Below the pieces are notes generated by a model that was not told the DNA's origin, made no database searches, and saw only the letters and a list, made by a program, of their open reading frames with translations. Shown in pieces: positions 5,662 through 56,506 of a stretch of DNA of 64,000 bases (positions within the stretch are counted from its first letter, which is position 1; every line of letters starts with the position of its first letter). The stretch lies in contig CAWDHY010000001.1 in NCBI GenBank assembly GCA_963802255.1, forward strand, positions 107,274 to 171,273, written 5' to 3'. The translations under genes and the position numbers were made by a program. Source of the stretch: Candidatus Magasanikiibacteriota bacterium. Lineage in GTDB: Bacteria; Patescibacteriota; Patescibacteriia; Magasanikbacterales; GWA2-37-8.

Positions 5662-6753
5662 CTATTTAATAAGCGGCCATTCGGTAGCTCTCAAGGCAAG
5701 CCCGATTGCCGAAGCCATTGCCAAGCTGTCTCCCTTTTCATTATTCAAATTTGGATTAAATAAATTTTTCCACACATTACCAGGGGCGGATTCAATTTTC
5801 AGCTTGTCTGACAAAAATTTGTCCAGATTAAACATCCCGGAAAGCCCCCCGGACATAGTAATGTGAGTGACCGGGTTTGGCTCGAAGAAATGGTCGCGGT
5901 AAAAAGCTGTCGCCTGATAGATACTATCAACCAATTTTTCGCTAAGTTCAGTTATGATTTTTAAATATGCTGGATATTTGTCGCAATAGTTTAGACCGTT
6001 ATTATCTTTTAGCGCCGTTGCCGCGGCTAACTCGATTTTGAACTGCTGCATGATGGAAGTATCAATTAAATCTCCGGAAAAATTTAGTAGTGAACTGAAC
6101 TGTATGGAACCTTTGTCATAAATTATCAAGCTTGAACGGGACCCGCCCAAGTCGAGGACCGCCCTGGCTTCGCCTGAGTATTCTTTGTCTGCGGTAATCA
6201 TTGACCGAGCAATGGAGAGGTCTTCGATTTCCAAAGCTAATGGCGATAAGGAAGCTGATTTTAACAGATTTGAGTATGATTCAACAATTGTTTTCGGCGT
6301 TGCGCCGAGAAGGGCGAAGGTGGCACTGGGTTTAAGTGTTTGTCCGCGGATTATCTGCCAGTCAATATTCATTTCATTAATATCCATCGGCAAATGCTTC
6401 GCTGCTTCAAATCGTATTGTTTCGTCGCTGATTTCATTTTCCGGAGCGCTGATGCGGATTAGCTTTAGAAATGTTTTTGTAATAGGCAGGTTAGCGACTA
6501 CCCATGGCGTATGAATTGCCGGAGCGTCTTTTTGTCTGCTTAACAAAATTTTAATTTTTTCCTTGGCTAATTCAGCCTGTAAAATTTCTCCGTTTGAAAT
6601 ACAACCGGCCGGTAAAGATATCTTTCGGATATCGCGTACCGCATATCGTGGTACACGTCCAATTCTGGTTTCCTTTTCAAGGCGTACAAGTTTGAGCGAT
6701 GAATCACCGATATCAAGCCCGAAGGCGTCATTGAATGGACTATTGATAAACAT
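5662..6753 (-). CDS. pilM: type IV pilus assembly ATPase-like protein PilM (actin fold)
   Basis: actin-like ATPase motifs (LDLGGSRSSLIIYDKG, GGLSG) and operon context. Confidence 0.75.
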   Translation of the reverse strand: MFINSPFNDAFGLDIGDSSLKLVRLEKETRIGRVPRYAVRDIRKISLPAGCISNGEILQAELAKEKIKILLSRQKDAPAIHTPWVVANLPITKTFLKLIRISAPENEISDETIRFEAAKHLPMDINEMNIDWQIIRGQTLKPSATFALLGATPKTIVESYSNLLKSASLSPLALEIEDLSIARSMITADKEYSGEARAVLDLGGSRSSLIIYDKGSIQFSSLLNFSGDLIDTSIMQQFKIELAAATALKDNNGLNYCDKYPAYLKIITELSEKLVDSIYQATAFYRDHFFEPNPVTHITMSGGLSGMFNLDKFLSDKLKIESAPGNVWKNLFNPNLNNEKGDSLAMASAIGLALRATEWPLIK

Positions 6754-14018: not shown

Positions 14019-14207
14019 ATTGATACCATTATATCAAAATATTCGTTGTTTATAAATATTGACTAATTATTTGTATTTTTGTAATATATCTCCACAATAA
14101 TACTGCCAGAGATGTTATCTGGTAATGCGGGTATCATATATGGCAAAAAGCATATATGACACCCTCGTTCGGAAATGTAAAAACTTTGTTTTTCCATTTC
14201 GCTCGTT

Positions 14208-14279
14208 GCGGGTATCATATAACGGCTATTATCCCAGTTTTCCAAACTGGTGACAGGGGTTCGACTCCCCTTACCCGCT
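14208..14279 (+). tRNA. tRNA-Gly (anticodon TCC)
   Basis: cloverleaf with acceptor GCGGGTA/TACCCGC, anticodon loop UUUCCAA, T-loop TTCGACT; a 14-nt copy of its 5' end (gcgggtatcatata) lies 81 nt upstream at 14127-14140. Confidence 0.85.
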
Positions 14280-14280
14280 C

Positions 14281-14314: not shown

Positions 14315-14320
14315 TGAATG

Positions 14321-14486
14321 TAGTGAAGGGAGTCGAACGGGCAGAAGCGAGACGCGAAGTTTTTGCGGAAGCAAAAACAAGTTGGCGAGAGTCGTCGGAC
14401 TGCCAGTGGCAGTCCGACGCTGCCCAGGACAAGGAGACGAGACGGTTGCGGCCGGCGAGGCGACGAGGAACTCCCCTTACCGCTCA
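14321..14486 (+). repeat. family-A tRNA-appended structured element, copy 1 (candidate ncRNA or miniature mobile element)
   Basis: roughly 80-90% identical by eye to the reverse complement of 24536-24698; 5' end gggagtcgaac is the reverse complement of the tRNA-Gly(TCC) T-loop region; 3' end ctccccttaccgctca copies the tRNA 3' end; internal hairpins show compensatory changes between copies; flanked by terminators. Confidence 0.6.
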
Positions 14487-14488
14487 AA

Positions 14489-14517
14489 ACACACAGACGC
14501 CAGACTGTGTGTTTTTA
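14489..14517 (+). terminator. hairpin acacacag-acgccaga-ctgtgtgt followed by TTTTT
   Basis: 8-bp stem plus T-run directly after the element. Confidence 0.55.
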
Positions 14518-14548: not shown

Positions 14549-17074
14549 ATGCAGTTATCTATTACATCTCAAACAATTGATTGGCTATATAAGCGTTTTG
14601 AAACTTCAGAGCAGGGATTGTTGCCGACTGAAGCCGAACTCCGCCGAAAAAAATATGGCTTGAATGAATTATCGGCTAAAGAGATAAAGTGGTGGCATAT
14701 TTTAGGCCGTCAATTTAGGTCGCCTTTTATTTATTTGTTAATTTTTGCCGCAAGTTTGGCGCTTGTGATGAGAGAATTAATTGATGGTTTAATGATTTTG
14801 GTCTTCGTGATGATAAACGCTACCTTAGGGTTTGCGGAAGAATATCATTCAGAAAGATCTTTGCGCCTGTTAAAAAAGTTTGTAGTAACGAAAGCGCGCG
14901 TCAGGCGCCACGGCCATGAAATGCTGGTTGATTCATGTCTTCTTGTACCCGGCGATGTCGTTCTTATTGAAACGGGCGATGTGGTGCCGGCAGATTTACG
15001 TTTTATTATTACAAATGGGCTTTCAATTGACGAGTCGGTTATTACAGGAGAGTCGGCACCTCAAAATAAATCTGTTGCGACTTTAAAGCACGAAGCTAAA
15101 CAATTGAGTGATGCGACAAATTTTGGTTTTATGAGTACAGTTGTTTCTGCCGGAAAGGGTGTCGGTGTGGTTGTTAACACCGGAAAAGATACCGCGGTTG
15201 GGGGAATGGCAAAATTGACATCGGAAACTGAACGTAAAAGTTCTTTTGAAAAAGGTATCGCCAGATTCAGTTCATTCATATTGCGAATGGTTGTTCTAAT
15301 AATCGTATTGTTATTCGCGGCCAATATCATTATTAAAGGGCCGGAAGCTGATTTGGGTAATTTATTATTGTTTTCTATAGCACTTGCGGTTAGTGTTATT
15401 CCGGAAGCATTACCTCTAGTTACTACATTATCTCTCTCCCGGGGAGCTTTACGTATGGCAAAAGGAAGCGTTGTAGTTAAACGCTTGTCTGCGGTTGAAG
15501 ATCTGGGTAGCATAGAAGTTTTGTGTACTGATAAAACCGGAACAATAACGGAAAATAAATTGGTGGTGAAAGAAGTGTATTCCAAGGACGAAAGAGCGTG
15601 TTTGTTGAGCGCTGGTGCGGCATCGTCATTTATTGGTGAGGGGAAGCAGGAACCAAATAATGCATTTGATTTGGCCATCTGGAATAATTTAATTGCCACG
15701 GAGAAGAAAAGCGTACTGAAGTGTGGCCGGATAAATGAAATGCCGTTTGATCCTGCCAGGCGCAGAAATAGCGTGGTGGTGAAGAACAATGGCGGCTGCC
15801 GGTTAATTGTACGGGGCGCCGCTGAATCGGTACTGCCTCTTTGCGAACATTTAGGGAATGGGGAATTAAAAAGGATACTGAAATGGGTTGCGGATAAAGG
15901 TGTGGAAGGTTGCCGCACAATAGTTGTGGCTGAGAAAAAATGTGAAGAGATGATTTCCTATGATGACGGGGCTGAAAAAAAATTGATATTTATCGGAGCA
16001 ATCGCTTTTGACGATCCGATAAAGTCGTCAACAATTTCCGCTATTGAAAAAGCTAGACGCCTGGGCGTTCAAGTTAAAATACTAACCGGCGATAGCCGGG
16101 AAGTGGCCGGCGCCGTGGCGCTAAAAGTTGGTTTAATTGATGACGCAAGCAAAATTATCACAGGAGAAGAAATTGATGTTTTACCGGAAAAAAAGCGTGC
16201 CGCGGTGATATTCGAAAATAGCGTTTTTGCCAGAGTTTCTCCGGAGCAGAAATACCGGATTATTGAAGTACTCCAAAGCAAACATGAAGTTGGCTTTTTA
16301 GGAGAAGGTATCAATGACGCGCCGGCGCTAAAATTGGCCAATGTTGCCTTAGCGGTTAACAGTGCGTCGGATATCGCGCGGGAAGCATCAGACATAGTAT
16401 TGCTTCATTCAAGTTTGGCGGTAATTATTGACGGGATAAAAAATGGCCGGGAGGTTTTTGCTAATACGGTGAAATATTTAAAGGTCACTTTAGTTTCAAA
16501 TTTTGGAAATTTTTATGCTATTGCCGCCGCGTCTCTGATCGTGCCTTTTCTGCCGATGTTGCCGGTTCAAATATTGCTTCTTAATTTGCTGTCTGATTTT
16601 CCGATGGTTGCAATCGCCACTGATAAAGTGGACAAAGAGGAACTGCGGCGGCCACGTTCGTATAATATCCGCGAGGTTGTTCTGATGGCTATTATTTTAG
16701 GTTTAGTCAGTACGATATTTGATTTTATATTTTTTGCAATATTTTTTCACCGCGAACCAGCTGTACTGCAAGCAGGGTGGTTTATCGGCAGCGTATTAAC
16801 CGAATTAATTTTAATATATTCTATTCGAACGCGGCTGGCTTTTTGGAAGGCAAAAATGCCCTCTTGGCCGCTTCTCATATTAACTGTTTCGGCTGTAATA
16901 TTCTCCGTGTTTTTACCACTTTCACATTTTGGCCGGTCCATTTTTAAATTTGGCATATTGTCACTGCGGGATATTTTCACGATATTAATCGTTGTTTTTA
17001 TCTACTTTATTATCACCGAACTATTGAAGCGTATATATTATGCAAAAATAGGTAACGGAAAATTAGCCGCTTGA
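14549..17074 (+). CDS. cation-transporting P-type ATPase (P2/P3-like, Mg2+/Ca2+ type)
   Basis: phosphorylation motif CTDKTGTITENK, TGES-like region, hinge GEGINDAPAL, ten predicted TM helices. The track ORF begins at 14363 inside the element; the first ATG with the conserved N-terminus is at 14549. Confidence 0.85.
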   Translation: MQLSITSQTIDWLYKRFETSEQGLLPTEAELRRKKYGLNELSAKEIKWWHILGRQFRSPFIYLLIFAASLALVMRELIDGLMILVFVMINATLGFAEEYHSERSLRLLKKFVVTKARVRRHGHEMLVDSCLLVPGDVVLIETGDVVPADLRFIITNGLSIDESVITGESAPQNKSVATLKHEAKQLSDATNFGFMSTVVSAGKGVGVVVNTGKDTAVGGMAKLTSETERKSSFEKGIARFSSFILRMVVLIIVLLFAANIIIKGPEADLGNLLLFSIALAVSVIPEALPLVTTLSLSRGALRMAKGSVVVKRLSAVEDLGSIEVLCTDKTGTITENKLVVKEVYSKDERACLLSAGAASSFIGEGKQEPNNAFDLAIWNNLIATEKKSVLKCGRINEMPFDPARRRNSVVVKNNGGCRLIVRGAAESVLPLCEHLGNGELKRILKWVADKGVEGCRTIVVAEKKCEEMISYDDGAEKKLIFIGAIAFDDPIKSSTISAIEKARRLGVQVKILTGDSREVAGAVALKVGLIDDASKIITGEEIDVLPEKKRAAVIFENSVFARVSPEQKYRIIEVLQSKHEVGFLGEGINDAPALKLANVALAVNSASDIAREASDIVLLHSSLAVIIDGIKNGREVFANTVKYLKVTLVSNFGNFYAIAAASLIVPFLPMLPVQILLLNLLSDFPMVAIATDKVDKEELRRPRSYNIREVVLMAIILGLVSTIFDFIFFAIFFHREPAVLQAGWFIGSVLTELILIYSIRTRLAFWKAKMPSWPLLILTVSAVIFSVFLPLSHFGRSIFKFGILSLRDIFTILIVVFIYFIITELLKRIYYAKIGNGKLAA

Positions 17075-17081
17075 TCGTTTC

Positions 17082-17110
17082 TTGACAAAATGGAGTTATT
17101 TTTGTACAAT
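17082..17110 (+). promoter_or_regulatory. sigma70-like promoter (TTGACA, 17-nt spacer, TACAAT) driving the tRNA-Gly(GCC)/tRNA-fMet cluster
   Basis: -35 at 17082-17087 and -10 at 17105-17110, just after the ATPase stop. Confidence 0.5.
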
Positions 17111-17138
17111 GTTGACACAAATACAGAGTAAATATCGC

Positions 17139-17360
17139 GCGGGTATGCTCAGGTATAGCCGCGTCGCTCGGAAACAATGAACGAGCTAGCTTATTCATTG
17201 TGTTCCTCACTCGCGGGTATACTCAGGTATATCCGCTCATTCGGAGAAAGTATACGAGTTTGCTCGTCTACTCTGCTCCTCATTTCGCGGGTATACTAAG
17301 GTATACCCACTCATTCGCGGAAAATGTCAAAATAAATTTTGCCACTTTGCCGCTCATTTC
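17139..17360 (+). repeat. three degenerate ~74-nt tandem pseudo-copies of the tRNA-Gly(GCC) 5' region
   Basis: gcgggtat(g/a)ct(c/a)aggtata recurs at 17139, 17213 and 17287 with a 74-nt period, each preceded by ctca(t)ttc as at the real tRNA; each unit begins with a hairpin gggtatac..gtataccc. Confidence 0.6.
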
Positions 17361-17432
17361 GCGGGTATAGTACAACGGTTAGTATACGTCCTTGCCAAGG
17401 ATGAGATGGCGGTTCGATTCCGCTTACCCGCT
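17361..17432 (+). tRNA. tRNA-Gly (anticodon GCC)
   Basis: cloverleaf; anticodon loop UUGCCAA; T-loop TTCGATT; acceptor GCGGGTA/TACCCGC. Confidence 0.85.
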
Positions 17433-17472
17433 CTGAATATTATTGCGGATACTTGTCCGCGATAATATTCAG
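17433..17472. other. 17-bp inverted repeat hairpin (ctgaatattattgcgga / tccgcgataatattcag) between the two tRNAs
   Basis: near-perfect 40-nt palindrome with no U-tract; likely a processing or spacer structure. Confidence 0.5.
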
Positions 17473-17482
17473 GGGAAAATAT

Positions 17483-17555
17483 AGCGGGGTAGAGCAATTG
17501 GCAGCTCGTCGGGCTCATAACCCGAAGGTTCCCGGTTCAAGTCCGGGCCCCGCAA
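17483..17555 (+). tRNA. initiator tRNA-fMet (anticodon CAT) with an A1xA72 mismatch
   Basis: three consecutive G:C pairs 29-31:39-41 in the anticodon stem, loop CUCAUAA, unpaired 1:72, discriminator A; no encoded CCA. Confidence 0.8.
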
Positions 17556-17915
17556 CAAAGTTGCGAAGGGGCAGTAACCACTGCTCTTTTGTATTTGTGC
17601 CGCGCAGGGACGCTTTGCGTCCCGTAGGCGGCTAACCATGTTTTGCGTGAATCGGTTCAAGTCCGGGCCCCGCAACAAAGTTGCGAAGGGGCAGTAACCA
17701 CTGCTCTTTTGTATTTGTGCCGCGCAGGGACGCTTTGCGTCCCGTAGGCGGCTAACCATGTTTTGCGTGAATCGGTTCAAGTCCGGGCCCCGCAACAAAG
17801 TTGCGAAGGGGCAGTAACCACTGCTCTTTTGTATTTGTGCCGCGCAGGGACGCTTTGCGTCCCGTAGGCGGCTAACCATGTTTTGCGTGAATCGGTTCAA
17901 GTCCGGGCCCCGCAA
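17556..17915 (+). repeat. 3 x 120-nt tandem array; each unit is a 94-nt structured spacer plus a 26-28-nt copy of the tRNA-fMet T-loop/acceptor 3' end
   Basis: period 120 (ggttcaa at 17534, 17654, 17774, 17894); units virtually identical; internal hairpins gcagtaaccactgc and gggacgc-ttt-gcgtccc; the track ORF 17469..17918 is a translation of this repeat. Confidence 0.85.
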
Positions 17916-17958
17916 CAACTAAAAACATCTCCGCATAAGCGGAGATGTTTTTAGTTGT
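17911..17958. terminator. bidirectional terminator with a 22-bp perfect inverted repeat (caacaactaaaaacatctccgc / gcggagatgtttttagttgttg)
   Basis: long perfect stem with U-tracts on both strands; closes the tRNA array and the convergent perM-like gene. Confidence 0.6.
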
Positions 17959-17968
17959 TGCAATGAAA

Positions 17969-19024
17969 TTATTTATTTTTATCCAAATTCTTTCGGAAAG
18001 AGTTTTCGTACATATCCCAAAATGCCATCATCAGCGCGGCAATAATCGGACCGATGATAAAACCAGAAATTCCAAATACAGCAATGCCGCCTAATGTGGA
18101 GAGTAATACTAGCAATGGGTGCATCTGCGAGTCTTTCCCAACCAATATTGGTCGTAAAAAATTATCAATAGTGCCGATTACCAGTCCGCCAAAAAGTATC
18201 ATGCCGATGCCGGTCCAAGTGTGCCCGGTGATAAGCATAACGATAGCGACCGGCAACCAAATAAAGTATGGGCCGACGCCAGGGACTGAAGACGCGAGAA
18301 CCATCAGAATGCCCCAGATAATAGCTCCGTCGATTCCGACAACAGCAAACATTAAACCGCCCAGCGCGCCCTGTATTAATCCGACAATCAGCGATCCTTT
18401 TATTGTTGCTCTTGCCGTTGAAGTGAATTTATCATAAAGCATTTTTTCATGTTCATCCCCAAGCGGGCACAGATGCATCATCTTTTTGAGAATTTTTTCT
18501 CCGTCTCGTATAAAAAAGAACAGGGTATAAAAAGAAACAAATAACATTATTAAAAATATAATAGTGTTTTGAGTGAACGACTTTGCGCTGCTGATAAGAA
18601 ATGTCGTCACGCCTTTTGTTAATTCTGAAAATTTTGCCGCCCAAAAAGCTTCGTCGATATTTAATCTTGTGGTATAAGGGTTATTTTTCACCCACTCTAT
18701 AGCATTGTGTATGCTATTGTTAATCTCTCCTCCATTTGAGGCGAGGGATGAATATAAATTAATTGATTCTTTTACGACCAGAGAGCTGACTAAAATAAGC
18801 GGAATTATTATAATGAAAAAAATGACCGTCATTGTAATGGCCGTACTTAAATTTGGGACATTCAATTTTTTATTTACTATGCGGTAGAGCGGATAAAAGA
18901 TACCGGCGATAATTGCCGCCCAGAAAATTGGATAGGCAAATGTTTTTATTATCCAAAGAAAAGCGATTGATACAATCGCGAGTAATGTTAAGAAAAGAAA
19001 GTTGCGGATTTTAGCAAAGTCCAT
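17969..19024 (-). CDS. AI-2E family transporter (PerM/UPF0118)
   Basis: about 8 TM helices with the characteristic AI-2E layout and a conserved C-terminal block. Confidence 0.55.
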   Translation of the reverse strand: MDFAKIRNFLFLTLLAIVSIAFLWIIKTFAYPIFWAAIIAGIFYPLYRIVNKKLNVPNLSTAITMTVIFFIIIIPLILVSSLVVKESINLYSSLASNGGEINNSIHNAIEWVKNNPYTTRLNIDEAFWAAKFSELTKGVTTFLISSAKSFTQNTIIFLIMLFVSFYTLFFFIRDGEKILKKMMHLCPLGDEHEKMLYDKFTSTARATIKGSLIVGLIQGALGGLMFAVVGIDGAIIWGILMVLASSVPGVGPYFIWLPVAIVMLITGHTWTGIGMILFGGLVIGTIDNFLRPILVGKDSQMHPLLVLLSTLGGIAVFGISGFIIGPIIAALMMAFWDMYENSFRKNLDKNK

Positions 19025-24497: not shown

Positions 24498-24535
24498 CAT
24501 AAAAAAATACCCCGAAGAAAGCGGGGATTTTTTTG
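24498..24535. terminator. hairpin ccccgaagaaagcgggg with U-tracts on both strands
   Basis: 5-bp GC stem with 7-nt loop; T-run on + strand, A-run on + strand (= T-run on minus strand). Confidence 0.5.
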
Positions 24536-24698
24536 TGGTCCGGGTGGGAATTACTCGTCGTCTCGCCGACCACAATCGGCTCGACTCCTTGCCCTGGGCA
24601 GCGACGGACTGCCACGGGCAGTCCGTCGACTCTCGCCAGCTCGTTTTTGCTTCCGAAAAAACTTCGCTTCTCGCTTCTGCCCGTTCGATTCCCTCGTC
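24536..24698 (-). repeat. family-A tRNA-appended structured element, copy 2 (downstream of tRNA-Leu-TAA)
   Basis: homologous to 14321-14486; 5' end (minus strand) gggaatcgaac is the reverse complement of the tRNA-Leu(TAA) T-loop region; 3' end attcccacccggaccac at 24536-24552 copies the tRNA 3' 17 nt. Confidence 0.6.
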
Positions 24699-24699
24699 T

Positions 24700-24737
24700 G
24701 ACATTTAAAAATACGGCTCCAACAAAAATTGGAACCG
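24700..24737 (-). terminator. hairpin acggttccaa-ttttt-gttggagccgt followed by ATTTTT (minus strand)
   Basis: 10-bp stem with one mismatch, directly after tRNA-Leu. Confidence 0.5.
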
Positions 24738-42710: not shown

Positions 42711-43268
42711 ATGCAAAAAGCATTATTTTTATTCATATTCGCCATGTTTGTCGGCTGTGGGGCATCTGACCGTTTTGAAGTGATTGATGGTGGTGGTAGT
42801 GATTCTGACTCGGATAACGACACCGACACAGACACCGACACAGACACCGACACAGACACAGACACCGACACAGACACCGACACAGACACCGACACCGAGA
42901 CGGAGACTGAGGCTGATGCTGGCCCTCAGACGTGTGAAACGGCTTCTGACTGCGATGAAGACGAGGTCTGTGGTTATGAAACGCAAACTTGCTATCTGCA
43001 GCCAGAGCCCGGTGCGGACCAGTATTGGTACTGCTGGGATGATGGTCCGGACAGCGAAGGCCCTAGCTGTGACTCCTTTGATTTCGGCGGTTGCGATTAT
43101 TGGTCGCCAGAGGAGTGGCATTGGACCGATGTCCATCCCGCTTGCGGCTCTAACTATCCGCCGCCAGCTTGCCCGACGCATTATCCGACCACTCCAGCCT
43201 GTTGCCTCAAAAACAACGGTGAGGATGAGGACTGCATCGGCCAGGCCTTTTTTCCCCCTATTGTATAG
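42711..43268 (+). CDS. acidic Cys-rich lipoprotein with a (DT)12-(ET)2 repeat; GC-rich and compositionally atypical
   Basis: SD AAGGAG 6 nt upstream of ATG 42711 (the track start is 42675); lipobox FVGC|G; 18 Cys; local GC well above the window background. Confidence 0.55.
   Translation: MQKALFLFIFAMFVGCGASDRFEVIDGGGSDSDSDNDTDTDTDTDTDTDTDTDTDTDTDTDTETETEADAGPQTCETASDCDEDEVCGYETQTCYLQPEPGADQYWYCWDDGPDSEGPSCDSFDFGGCDYWSPEEWHWTDVHPACGSNYPPPACPTHYPTTPACCLKNNGEDEDCIGQAFFPPIV
42819..42902 (+). repeat. hexanucleotide simple-sequence repeat (GACACN)n encoding (DT)12
   Basis: gacaccgacaca... tract inside the lipoprotein gene. Confidence 0.9.
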
Positions 43269-43413: not shown

Positions 43414-43769
43414 GTGCCTACGATTAAAACCCCTTTGGGGACCACGTCCAATCTCATGGATACAAATCGTATCCGCCTGGACCTCTGGGTAAGACTTTTA
43501 CTCAATTGTAAAAGACAGGTAATGTTAACCATTATCAAACAACTCAAATCTTACTCATAGTATCCAAGCGGTTCAAACTCACAAAAATTGAGTCGCTTGT
43601 CGCGGCTCATTTTTTTATCTCACACTCCGGCCAATATATTGGCAGGAGCAATGAGACAAGAAATGGATTGCACGTTGACAATTTAAATAGTTCAACAAAA
43701 AAAGCAGATTTATATCTGCTGGGTAGAACGCAACAAAACACTGTTTGGTGTTTTCGTTGTGTGCAATTT

Positions 43770-46870
<3,101 letters not shown>

Positions 46871-46957: not shown

Positions 46958-47064
46958 TCAGGTGCCTTAAGCGACAGGGTCACACCCGATCCCATCCCGA
47001 ACTCGGCAGTTAAGCCTGTCAGCGCCGATGATAGCGTGACCCGCAAAAGTAGGCCGGCGCCTGA
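46958..47064 (+). rRNA. rrf: 5S ribosomal RNA
   Basis: helix I tcaggtgcc/ggcgcctga; internal cccatcccgaactcggcagttaagc; flanked by a long processing stem gaactgagtacagagttcagg/cctgaaccttgtactcagtt. Confidence 0.8.
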
Positions 47065-47188
47065 ACCTTGTACTCAGTTTTTTTGTACCTGTACATAAGA
47101 ATAAATGACGCCGGTCGCTTCTAAGATGAATGCTTCATTTTTTAGCAAGAAAATGATAAAATAGACATATAAATTAACCCGCAAATAT

Positions 47189-56281: not shown

Positions 56282-56350
56282 CATCTTTAATTATTTGGTC
56301 GCTTCGCCCCAACAAAACAAAAAAGCCCCCAAAGGGGTTCTTTTGTTTTT

Positions 56351-56506
56351 GTGGGTCGCCAGGGATTCGGCTTCAACTAAAATTTTCTTCCAAAAATTTT
56401 GTCTAGCCACCGCCTCGCGGTCGCGCTCGCTCTTTTGCATCGCGCGACATCGCTCCGGCGTCCGAATCCCTGTCGCGACCAAAACTGTTTGGTCGCTTCG
56501 CCCAAA
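56351..56506 (-). repeat. family-B tRNA-appended structured element, copy 2 (downstream of tRNA-Lys-CTT)
   Basis: minus-strand 3' end ccgaatccctggcgacccac (56351-56370) copies the tRNA-Lys 3' 20 nt exactly; 5' end cagggattcggac is an inverted copy of the Lys T-arm; family-B core motifs; the box tttggtcgcttcgccc plus a terminator module is duplicated at 56294-56345 and 56488-56537. Confidence 0.55.

What the first reader, a model, noticed from the sequence alone, without database searches (positions are those of the whole stretch)
17139..17360. Degenerate tandem pseudo-copies of the tRNA-Gly(GCC) 5' half upstream of the real gene
Three ~74-nt units beginning gcgggtat(g/a)ct(c/a)aggtata precede tRNA-Gly(GCC), which itself begins gcgggtatagtac, with the same 74-nt period. 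Each has the same junction ctca(t)ttc|gcgggta. Each begins with a hairpin (gggtatac-loop-gtataccc) but lacks the anticodon and T-arms. tRNA-Gly(TCC) at 14208 likewise has a 14-nt copy of its 5' end 81 nt upstream, at 14127-14140. So 5'-end copies accumulate upstream of tRNAs, mirroring the 3'-end copies downstream. This is a genome-wide peculiarity of tRNA loci in this organism.
Basis: seen in the sequence. Interest (0 to 1): 0.5.

Follow-up and report, generated by a model that had tools for sequence, protein, structure and literature searches.

The report
Conserved two-hairpin leader before tRNA-Gly
The three 74-base repeats in front of tRNA-Gly are not decayed tRNA copies but a conserved, undescribed two-hairpin RNA module found just before tRNA-Gly genes in many uncultured candidate-phyla (Patescibacteria) bacteria, and it probably controls how the tRNA precursor is cut.

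Summary
Three exactly 74-nt units (17139-17360) abut tRNA-Gly(GCC), and one 81-nt unit (14127-14207) abuts tRNA-Gly(TCC). ARAGORN and the Rfam tRNA model call none of them.

Each unit has two hairpins:
- Hairpin A is the first 8-14 nt of the tRNA folded onto a complement.
- Hairpin B' is about 20 bp, variable in sequence, with an invariant UC/UC internal loop.
- Only 1-3 nt stay unpaired before the next unit or before tRNA G+1.

Homologous units (1-4 copies) abut tRNA-Gly(TCC/GCC/CCC) in about 45 metagenome contigs and in Magasanikbacteria genomes. Covariation is strong: 16 of 17 B' pairs change on both sides. A covariance model built without any window sequence scores the window units at 61-82 bits. 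In the window only the two tRNA-Gly genes of 11 tRNAs carry units, so this is not genome-wide. One contig (L262) has the module before tRNA-Arg and tRNA-Ala, with hairpin A retuned to those tRNAs.

No Rfam family or paper matches. The best reading is a transcribed, cis-acting pre-tRNA leader module that sequesters the leader and so gates 5' maturation. Copy number changes by tandem duplication. The function is inferred, not shown.

The parts
17082..17110 (+). Sigma-70-type promoter (TTGACA, 17 nt, TACAAT). The expected start is about 20 nt before unit 1.
   Evidence: 11 of 12 consensus matches, the best site in 16500-18500. Related loci also have a promoter upstream of the first unit. This is a consensus match only. 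Transcription was not measured.
17139..17212 (+). Leader unit U1 (74 nt). Hairpin A is 17139-17162, spacer GTC, extended hairpin B' is 17166-17210, then TC.
   Evidence: R2 (no window sequences) scores it at 61.2 bits, E 1.6e-11. It is the most degenerate unit, with a G.G mismatch in hairpin A and a C.A at the second closing pair of B'.
17213..17286 (+). Leader unit U2 (74 nt). Hairpin A is 17213-17236, spacer TC, B' is 17239-17283 (AUUC..UCAU closing pairs around the UC/UC loop), then TTC.
   Evidence: R2 scores it at 71.9 bits, E 6.8e-14.
17287..17360 (+). Leader unit U3 (74 nt). Hairpin A is 17287-17310, spacer TC, B' is 17313-17357, then TTC, directly abutting tRNA G+1.
   Evidence: R2 scores it at 81.5 bits, E 5.1e-16.
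17361..17433 (+). tRNA-Gly(GCC), the gene the array leads into. No CCA is encoded.
   Evidence: ARAGORN. Rfam RF00005 at 63.8 bits. The identical tRNA, with 1.5 units, occurs in the syntenic relative L230.
14127..14207 (+). Single leader unit (81 nt) before tRNA-Gly(TCC). Hairpin A is 14129-14164 (nt 1-14 identical to the tRNA), B' is 14167-14206.
   Evidence: R2 scores it at 29.8 bits, E 1.5e-4. It is the same subtype as units in Magasanikbacteria genomes L052, L068, L078, L086 and L133.
14208..14280 (+). tRNA-Gly(TCC).

Best explanation
The repeats are tandem copies of a conserved, structured RNA module. It lies in the transcribed 5' leader of pre-tRNA-Gly in Patescibacteria (candidate phyla radiation) bacteria.

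Shown:
- Each unit consists of hairpin A and hairpin B'.
- Hairpin A: its 5' arm repeats the first 8-14 nt of the downstream tRNA (acceptor 5' strand plus U8). Its 3' arm is complementary to that.
- Hairpin B': about 20 bp, free in sequence but fixed in shape. It is closed by two covarying pairs (RYUC...UCRY) around an invariant UC/UC internal loop.
- Units follow one another, and the tRNA, with only 1-3 unpaired nucleotides between them.
- The module sits between the promoter and tRNA G+1.

Inferred mechanism:
- B' holds the leader base-paired up to position -2/-3.
- Hairpin A keeps a spare copy of the acceptor 5' strand locked to an anti-acceptor strand.
- RNase P would therefore have restricted access to the tRNA 5' end until B' is opened or cut, for example by a double-strand RNase.
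- Mis-partnered folds (anti-acceptor arm with the tRNA 5' end, spare copy with the tRNA 3' strand) are possible.
- The module would thus gate or order maturation of tRNA-Gly.

Copy number (1-4) changes by unequal recombination between the repeated 5' strands.
For: Structure and conservation:
- The same two-hairpin fold appears in 50+ distinct units.
- GCC-like alignment A1: 92% of cells paired, against 35-53% when partners are slid. 16 of 17 B' pairs change on both sides. The covariation score is 0.47 against 0.22 in shuffles (0 of 500 reach it).
- TCC-type alignment A2: 12 of 15 B' pairs change on both sides.
- Alignment A3, without window sequences: 22 of 27 pairs change on both sides.
- Closing pairs: A1 pair 31-76 is AU 9, GC 8, GU 1, other 2. 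A2 pair 44-84 is GC 18, AU 2, GU 1.

Strand:
- Plus-strand scores of 61-88 bits compare with 21-37 bits for the minus-strand shadows.
- G.U pairs are frequent.

Position:
- Every strong hit in about 1.65 Mb of loci abuts a tRNA-Gly or the next unit with a gap of 0-1 nt.
- Promoters lie upstream of the first unit.

Tailoring:
- In L262 the module precedes tRNA-Arg(GCG) twice and tRNA-Ala(GGC) once. The hairpin A 5' arm equals the first 9 or 8 nt of that tRNA.

Constraint hierarchy:
- Mean pairwise identity in A2 is 0.91-0.98 for the 5' arm, 0.81-0.84 for linker and tail, 0.79 for the 3' arm, 0.67 for the B stems and 0.45 for loops.

Alternative partner exchange:
- It is energetically competitive. 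The MFE of 17117-17436 swaps the hairpin A arms of U2 and U3 while the cloverleaf forms.

Published principle:
- Synthetic leaders that sequester a pre-tRNA 5' leader in a hairpin switch off RNase P cleavage in E. coli and with other RNase P types (PMC8925977).

Copy-number dynamics:
- Of 44 distinct unit-bearing tRNAs, 33 have 1 unit, 9 have 2, 1 has 3 and 1 has 4.
- The close relative L230 has 1.5 units where the window has 3.
Against: - No expression or processing data exist. The transcription start, RNase P sites and any effect on tRNA yield are all inferred.
- Co-transcriptional folding should form hairpin A and B' first, so a switch needs an unknown trigger.
- The model does not explain why the module is almost confined to tRNA-Gly.
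- It does not explain why the UC/UC loop is invariant.
- It does not explain why the hairpin A 5' arm must match the tRNA exactly while its 3' arm may drift.
- The pyrimidine-rich tail is not simply the general leader preference of these genomes. Unit-less tRNAs in the same loci have A-rich leaders.
- Related genomes with the same tRNA lack the module (L059, L064, L124, L141). It is therefore dispensable.
Confidence: 0.55

Rival explanations
1. The units are genes for small stable RNAs in their own right. RNase P cuts before every hairpin A, because each boundary looks like the tRNA's own 5' boundary. This releases tRNA-sized (about 74 nt) two-hairpin RNAs, or free minihelices. These act in trans, for example as decoys for factors that read the tRNA-Gly acceptor stem.
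For: - Hairpin A is 10-13 bp, close to the 12-bp acceptor/T-arm stack that RNase P measures (own knowledge of minihelix substrates).
- Every unit boundary repeats the tRNA boundary (..UCAYUU|GCGGGUA).
- Unit length of 70-90 nt is close to tRNA size.
- Tandem amplification would raise the dose.
Against: - No 3' RCCA follows hairpin A.
- In the TCC type, G1 and C2 are unpaired or compete with the B' closing pairs.
- The tRNA-Ala unit has G3-C70, not the G3.U70 identity pair, so it is not an aminoacylatable minihelix (own reading).
- The 3' arm drifts into mismatches.
- No free-standing units occur away from tRNA genes in 64 kb plus 1.65 Mb.
Confidence: 0.17
2. The units are selfish or neutral by-products. 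Unequal recombination or slippage duplicates the block 'leader plus tRNA 5' end'. Selection acts only to keep the extra acceptor strand harmless, by locking it in a local hairpin. The rest is a tolerated structured spacer with no function.
For: - Copy number and unit order differ between close relatives (window against L230).
- Distal units are more degenerate: L230 U-2 lacks hairpin A, and L159 U-3 and L186 U-2 are partial.
- Some genomes with the same tRNA have no unit.
- L036 has two identical units.
Against: - B' keeps its length, its bulge positions, its UC/UC loop and its covarying closing pairs across lineages. Those lineages have tRNA-Gly genes that differ in anticodon, D arm and discriminator (U73 and A73).
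- Linker and tail are more conserved than the stems.
- The same module with the same linker, B' and tail occurs before Arg and Ala tRNAs with a retuned hairpin A. That is hard to obtain without selection.
Confidence: 0.15
3. This is a DNA-level element. The palindromes and the repeated tRNA 5' end are recombination (att-like or integron attC-like) sites, or operators for a DNA-binding protein. The copies of the tRNA end are integration scars.
For: - Direct repeats of a tRNA end are the classic mark of integration at tRNA genes (own knowledge).
- The same genome has tRNA 3'-end copies downstream of the Met, Leu, Lys and Gly(TCC) genes.
Against: - The 'insert' is only about 60 nt and carries no gene. 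No integrase lies nearby.
- B' varies in sequence but keeps pairing, including G.U pairs. This fits RNA, not a protein-read DNA site.
- Scores are strongly asymmetric between strands.
- The location is always on the transcribed side of a promoter.
Confidence: 0.05
4. One reading: these are decaying pseudo-copies of the tRNA-Gly 5' half, left by tandem duplication of the tRNA gene.
For: - The first 8-14 nt are identical to the tRNA.
- The period of 74 nt is close to tRNA length.
Against: - There is no similarity to the tRNA beyond nt 9. Overall identity of 22-26/74 is chance level once the first 9 nt are removed.
- The Rfam tRNA model gives no hit even at E<=10.
- Covariation and cross-species conservation are strong.
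- Units before Gly, Arg and Ala tRNAs share linker, B' and tail. They therefore do not each derive from their own tRNA.
Confidence: 0.03

Closest known systems
Synthetic RNase P riboswitches (designed 5' leaders fused to tRNAs; PMC8925977)
   Same: A hairpin in the 5' leader immediately upstream of the tRNA sequesters the leader. This determines whether RNase P can mature the 5' end.
   Different: - Those leaders are engineered and ligand-controlled (theophylline).
- The natural module has no known ligand.
- It carries an extra acceptor-strand hairpin and occurs in tandem.
- Its effect on RNase P is untested.
Acceptor-stem minihelix / microhelix model substrates of RNase P, aminoacyl-tRNA synthetases and the CCA-adding enzyme (own knowledge)
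   Same: Hairpin A is the tRNA acceptor 5' strand closed on a complementary strand. It is 10-13 bp long with a small loop.
   Different: - It has no 3' NCCA.
- Its 3' arm is not a faithful copy of the tRNA 3' strand (the Ala unit has G3-C70, and the Arg units have C.A mismatches).
- It is embedded in a leader rather than free.
E. coli tyrT locus: 178-bp tandem repeats after tRNA-Tyr, each repeating the tRNA 3' end (rtT RNA) (own knowledge)
   Same: Tandem repeats flank a tRNA gene. Each starts with a copy of a tRNA end and is co-transcribed with the tRNA.
   Different: - Those repeats lie downstream and copy the 3' end. They resemble the 120-bp array after tRNA-Met in this window (17533-17918), not the 5' units.
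- They have no two-hairpin covarying structure.
Functional spacer RNAs of tRNA/rRNA operons (e.g. 3'ETS-leuZ sponge RNA of E. coli) (own knowledge)
   Same: A transcribed, non-tRNA part of a tRNA precursor with a conserved role of its own.
   Different: - Those act by base pairing with sRNAs via Hfq.
- They are not acceptor-stem copies and are not tandem.
tRNA-like-plus-hairpin transcripts processed by tRNA enzymes (MHV68 TMER tRNA-miRNA units; MALAT1 mascRNA) (own knowledge)
   Same: tRNA-type structure is used as a processing signal next to unrelated hairpins in one transcript.
   Different: - Those are eukaryotic or viral.
- The tRNA-like part is a full cloverleaf.
- The hairpins lie downstream and feed RNA silencing.

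Membership tests
tRNA gene or tRNA pseudogene | Cloverleaf with D, anticodon and T arms, detectable by tRNA finders or the covariance model | tested here: not met
   ARAGORN calls nothing in 17139-17360 or 14127-14207. Rfam RF00005 gives no hit there at gathering score or at E<=10.
tRNA gene or tRNA pseudogene | Sequence homology to the parent tRNA along its length | tested here: not met
   Only nt 1-9 (GCC locus) or 1-14 (TCC locus) match. Overall identity is 22-26/74, which is chance level outside the 5' end.
CRISPR array | Conserved repeats separated by unrelated unique spacers, usually with cas genes nearby | tested here: not met
   - The variable parts are homologous hairpins with compensatory changes.
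- The array always ends in a tRNA.
- The neighbouring genes are a P-type ATPase, an AI-2E transporter and a polysaccharide synthase.
- The viral-contig hits to the bare period pattern were true CRISPR arrays without tRNAs and look different.
Intrinsic terminator / attenuator | G+C-rich stem followed by a U tract | tested here: not met
   The terminator scan finds no plus-strand site in 17139-17360. Hairpins are followed by UCAYUY and the next stem, not by a U run.
T-box or other described cis-regulatory RNA (any Rfam 15 family) | Match to the family covariance model | tested here: not met
   No family other than tRNA reaches threshold. At E<=10 there is only noise (mir-57, sn2417) in 17050-17365. 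None of 7 related loci has a hit on its units.
Integration scar (attL/attR duplication of a tRNA end) | Direct repeat of the tRNA end bounding inserted foreign DNA with a recombinase, variable between strains | tested here: inconclusive
   - The direct repeat is present.
- The 'insert' is about 60 nt of conserved structured sequence with no gene.
- It sits at the same position in many species, with covariation.
RNase P minihelix-type substrate | Stem of about 10-12 bp starting at G+1, with a single-stranded 5' leader | tested here: inconclusive
   Hairpin A is 10-13 bp and starts with G. However, the preceding leader is paired in B' up to -2/-3.
RNase P minihelix-type substrate | Cleavage by RNase P at the 5' side of the stem | not testable with these tools
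   This needs an in vitro cleavage assay or 5'-end mapping.
The new leader module itself (model R2) | Hairpin A, then a 1-3 nt spacer, then B' with RYUC..UCRY closing pairs and the UC/UC loop, directly abutting a tRNA whose first 8 or more nt equal the hairpin A 5' arm | tested here: met
   All four window units meet every feature. For U1 the second closing pair is C.A.

The most novel reading that the evidence does not exclude
A previously undescribed class of natural riboregulator acts on tRNA maturation itself. It is a modular pre-tRNA leader with three elements: a 'spare acceptor strand', an 'anti-acceptor keeper' and a leader-sequestering hairpin with a UC/UC recognition loop. Together they set how much tRNA-Gly is matured. 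Alternatively, the leader yields tRNA-sized decoy RNAs. The module is retunable to other tRNAs and is specific to the reduced-genome Patescibacteria.
Probability: 0.3. Interest if true: 0.8.

Novelty: new variant of a known kind. Interest (0 to 1): 0.62.

Why it matters
Natural regulation of tRNA supply at the level of precursor processing is almost unknown in bacteria. Leader-sequestering control of RNase P has so far been shown only with engineered constructs.

A conserved leader module that copies the acceptor strand of the tRNA it precedes would be a natural example. It would also give a handle on tRNA biogenesis in candidate-phyla bacteria, which cannot yet be studied genetically.

Practically:
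- The module is an unannotated, covariation-supported RNA family that could be added to RNA family libraries.
- It explains 'pseudo-tRNA-like' repeats that could confuse annotation of these genomes.

Tried and rejected
- Scan of viral contigs for three GCGGGTAT at a 63-93 nt period. All 30 hits were CRISPR arrays or other repeats without tRNAs. They are irrelevant.
- About 75 of the 120 metagenome pattern hits were unrelated short-period repeats.
- Hairpin A as an aminoacylatable Gly minihelix. Rejected as a general idea because the Ala unit lacks G3.U70, and the TCC-type units leave G1 and C2 out of the stem.
- Extending TCC-type hairpin A by pairing G1/C2 with the linker. This is superseded by the linker-tail pairs, which covary: AC..GU in L159 and L184.
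- The tail as the genome's generic RNase P leader preference. Not supported, because unit-less tRNAs have A-rich leaders.
- A promoter inside the units (TATAAT in TCC-type hairpin A). There is no -35 element at the right spacing (own reading of the sequence).
- Linker or tail pairing with the anticodon stem, a Gly specifier codon in B', a BoxA-like antitermination site, a k-turn, or an integron attC core. None fits the sequences (own reading).
- A strict pattern scan of the window for B'-like hairpins elsewhere, for example beside the rRNA genes. It found only U2 plus three chance matches.
- Five literature searches found no description of such a leader.
- Searches for more non-Gly units with R2 found none beyond L262.

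Full report
**1. The observation**

Reading 16800-17700 shows three head-to-tail units of exactly 74 nt:
- U1, 17139-17212
- U2, 17213-17286
- U3, 17287-17360

They run straight into tRNA-Gly(GCC) at 17361-17433 (ARAGORN; Rfam tRNA). tRNA-Met follows at 17483-17556.

A near-consensus promoter (TTGACA, 17 nt, TACAAT; 17082-17110) lies just upstream. tRNA-Gly(TCC) at 14208 is preceded by one 81-nt unit (14127-14207). Its first 14 nt equal those of the tRNA.

No tRNA finder or the Rfam tRNA model calls the units, even at E<=10. Beyond the first 9 nt they match the tRNA at chance level.

**2. Anatomy**

Each unit folds into two hairpins, with z-scores of -3.8 to -6.0 against shuffles.

*Hairpin A.* In U2 it is GCGGGTATAC-TCAG-GTATATCCGC. 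It is the tRNA's acceptor 5' strand plus U8/A9, paired to a complementary arm.

*Hairpin B.* It is 37 nt and differs in sequence between units, but it has the same shape.

Comparison with relatives showed that the apparently single-stranded 'linker' (..C-R-Y-U-C) and 'tail' (U-C-R-Y-U..) pair with each other. The observed combinations are AUUC..UCAU, GUUC..UCAC, GCUC..UCGC and ACUC..UCGU. So the second hairpin is really about 20 bp (B'). An invariant symmetric UC/UC internal loop sits next to a GG/CC step.

Only 1-3 nt are left unpaired between A and B', and between B' and the next G+1. The exact window coordinates are in the parts list.

**3. Relatives**

- Most Patescibacteria tRNA-Gly genes (Saccharibacteria, Gracilibacteria, Peregrinibacteria and others) have no unit.
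- The TCC genes of Candidatus Magasanikbacteria / Magasanikiibacteriota MAGs (L052, L068, L078, L086, L133) and one 'Patescibacteria group' MAG (L036) have 1-2 units.
- Genomes with the same tRNA but no unit also exist (L059, L064, L124, L141).

- About 45 contigs carry 1-4 units abutting tRNA-Gly with anticodon TCC, GCC or CCC. Both U73 and A73 discriminators occur.
- L158 has four units.
- L230 is a close, syntenic relative of the window, with an identical tRNA-Gly(GCC). It has one full unit plus one unit lacking hairpin A.
- Copy number and order therefore change quickly.

From these matches, and from the 3.1-kb 23S rRNA with no 16S upstream, I infer that the window comes from a Magasanikbacteria-like member of the Patescibacteria. 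This was not tested directly.

**4. Statistical support**

| Alignment | Content | Key result |
|---|---|---|
| A1 | 20 GCC-like units | 92% of cells paired (35-53% when partners are slid); 16 of 17 B' pairs change on both sides; covariation score 0.47 vs 0.22 in shuffles (0 of 500 reach it) |
| A2 | 21 TCC-type units | 12 of 15 B' pairs change on both sides |
| A3 | 19 units, none from the window, including the Arg and Ala units | 22 of 27 pairs change on both sides |

Model R2, built from A3, was run over the whole window with filters off:

| Hit | Score |
|---|---|
| U3 | 81.5 bits |
| U2 | 71.9 bits |
| U1 | 61.2 bits |
| TCC unit | 29.8 bits |
| Next plus-strand hit | 18 bits |
| Minus-strand shadows of the palindromes | 21-30 bits |

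The RNA strand is therefore the tRNA strand. In about 1.65 Mb of fetched loci, every strong hit abuts a tRNA or the next unit with a gap of 0-1 nt.

The shuffle control does not correct for relatedness. The slid-partner control does, and it is equally clear.

**5. Specificity**

In the window, none of the other 9 tRNAs has a 5'-end copy or a model hit.

Over all loci, a copy of the first 8 nt lies 60-100 nt upstream of 46 of 181 tRNA-Gly genes, but of only 2 of about 185 other tRNAs. The loci were chosen through tRNA-Gly, so this is not an unbiased census. Even so, within unit-bearing loci 43 non-Gly tRNAs lack units.

The two exceptions are informative. In contig L262 the same module occurs twice before tRNA-Arg(GCG) and once before tRNA-Ala(GGC). 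It has the same linker, the same GGAAAA-type B' and the same tail. Its hairpin A 5' arm equals the first 9 or 8 nt of that tRNA.
- Hairpin A is therefore tuned to the downstream tRNA, while the rest is generic.
- The Ala unit pairs G3 with C, not U. Hairpin A therefore copies the 5' strand and merely complements it. It is not a copy of the whole acceptor stem with its identity elements.

The order of conservation is 5' arm, then linker and tail, then 3' arm, then B stems, then loops. Mismatches in hairpin A arise from changes in the 3' arm only.

**6. What it is not**

- *Not a tRNA or pseudo-tRNA*.
- *Not a CRISPR array.* The variable parts are homologous hairpins, the array ends in a tRNA, and no cas genes lie nearby.
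- *Not a terminator.* There is no U tract.
- *Not any Rfam 15 family*.
- *Not described in the searchable literature*.

**7. How it most likely works**

Shown: a conserved, plus-strand RNA structure sits between the promoter and the tRNA. It leaves 1-3 free nucleotides before G+1. It holds a duplicate of the acceptor 5' strand paired to an anti-acceptor arm.

Established elsewhere: sequestering the leader next to a tRNA in a hairpin blocks RNase P, and freeing it restores maturation. This was shown with engineered leaders (PMC8925977).

Inferred:
- B' restricts RNase P access to pre-tRNA-Gly until it is opened or cut. Its length of about 20 bp with an internal loop would suit a double-strand-specific RNase (my suggestion, untested).
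- Hairpin A keeps the duplicated acceptor strand and its complement from invading the tRNA.
- The partner-swapped fold is thermodynamically competitive. The MFE of the whole leader swaps the U2 and U3 arms. The balance between folds could therefore set the yield of mature tRNA.
- Tandem copies arise by unequal recombination between the repeated 5' strands.

I put about 0.9 on 'conserved structured leader RNA, not decay'. I put about 0.35 on the specific gating mechanism. The reported figure of 0.55 is for the combined statement.

Unexplained:
- the preference for tRNA-Gly
- the invariant UC/UC loop
- the need for exact identity of the 5' arm

**8. Rivals**

- Trans-acting unit-length RNAs released by RNase P: 0.17
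- Neutral or selfish duplication with only 'harmlessness' selected: 0.15
- DNA-level recombination or operator site: 0.05
- Decaying tRNA halves: 0.03

The evidence for and against each is given in the rival entries.

**9. Novelty and verdict**

The element is real, conserved and unannotated. In kind it is a structured leader or tRNA-mimic RNA, so I rate it a new variant of a known kind. No existing family or paper that I could find covers it.

I score interest at 0.62.

Noticed in passing
window 17533-17918 (+): A perfect (100% identical) 120-bp tandem array of 3.2 copies starts inside the T arm of tRNA-Met. Each unit begins with the last 24 nt of the tRNA (CGGTTCAAGTCCGGGCCCCGCAAC). A terminator-like hairpin follows at about 17919-17957. 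The layout recalls the 178-bp repeats after E. coli tyrT (own knowledge). Perfect identity suggests very recent amplification or an assembly effect.
   Followed up: partly
window 14316-14490 (+), 24530-24706 (-), 56345-56480 (-): - A GC-rich element of about 150 nt lies downstream of tRNA-Gly(TCC) and tRNA-Leu(TAA), after each tRNA's own terminator. The two copies are about 88% identical.
- Each copy starts with the reverse complement of that tRNA's T arm (GGGAGTCGAAC / GGGAATCGAAC). Each ends with a direct copy of that tRNA's 3' end, followed by a second terminator.
- A diverged version follows tRNA-Lys(CTT).
- The same start occurs after tRNA-Gly(TCC) in L064, L091 and L124.
- There is no Rfam match.
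- The Gly copy overlaps the mechanical 5' extension of the P-type ATPase ORF.
   Followed up: partly
L262 2736-3129 (-): The leader module occurs before tRNA-Arg(GCG) (two units) and tRNA-Ala(GGC) (one unit), with hairpin A matching those tRNAs. These are the only non-Gly cases found.
   Followed up: yes
L133 about 6105-6280 (+): Upstream of the leader unit in a Magasanikiibacteriota MAG lies a tRNA-Gly(TCC)-like 5' two-thirds. Three GC-rich insertions interrupt it: after nt 10, after the D arm, and in the anticodon loop. The T arm and 3' acceptor strand are missing.
   Followed up: no
window 43760-46861 and 46958-47065 (+): The 23S rRNA match spans 3102 nt for a 2925-nt model, so it probably has an insertion. 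It is followed by 5S. No 16S gene lies upstream within the window, so the rRNA genes seem unlinked.
   Followed up: no
window, all 11 tRNA genes: Ten of 11 tRNA genes lack an encoded CCA. In eight of those the base after the discriminator is C, often followed by A (for example A-CAAAA).
   Followed up: no
L081 617-640 (+): A Saccharibacteria MAG has a second copy of the tRNA-Gly(CCC) 3' end (CCTCCCTCTACCCGCACCAA) about 170 nt downstream of the gene. This is the same 3'-copy phenomenon in another lineage.
   Followed up: no
window 42818-42898 (+): A hexamer repeat (CGACAC, 13.5 copies) lies between tRNA-Leu(TAG) and the 23S rRNA gene.
   Followed up: no
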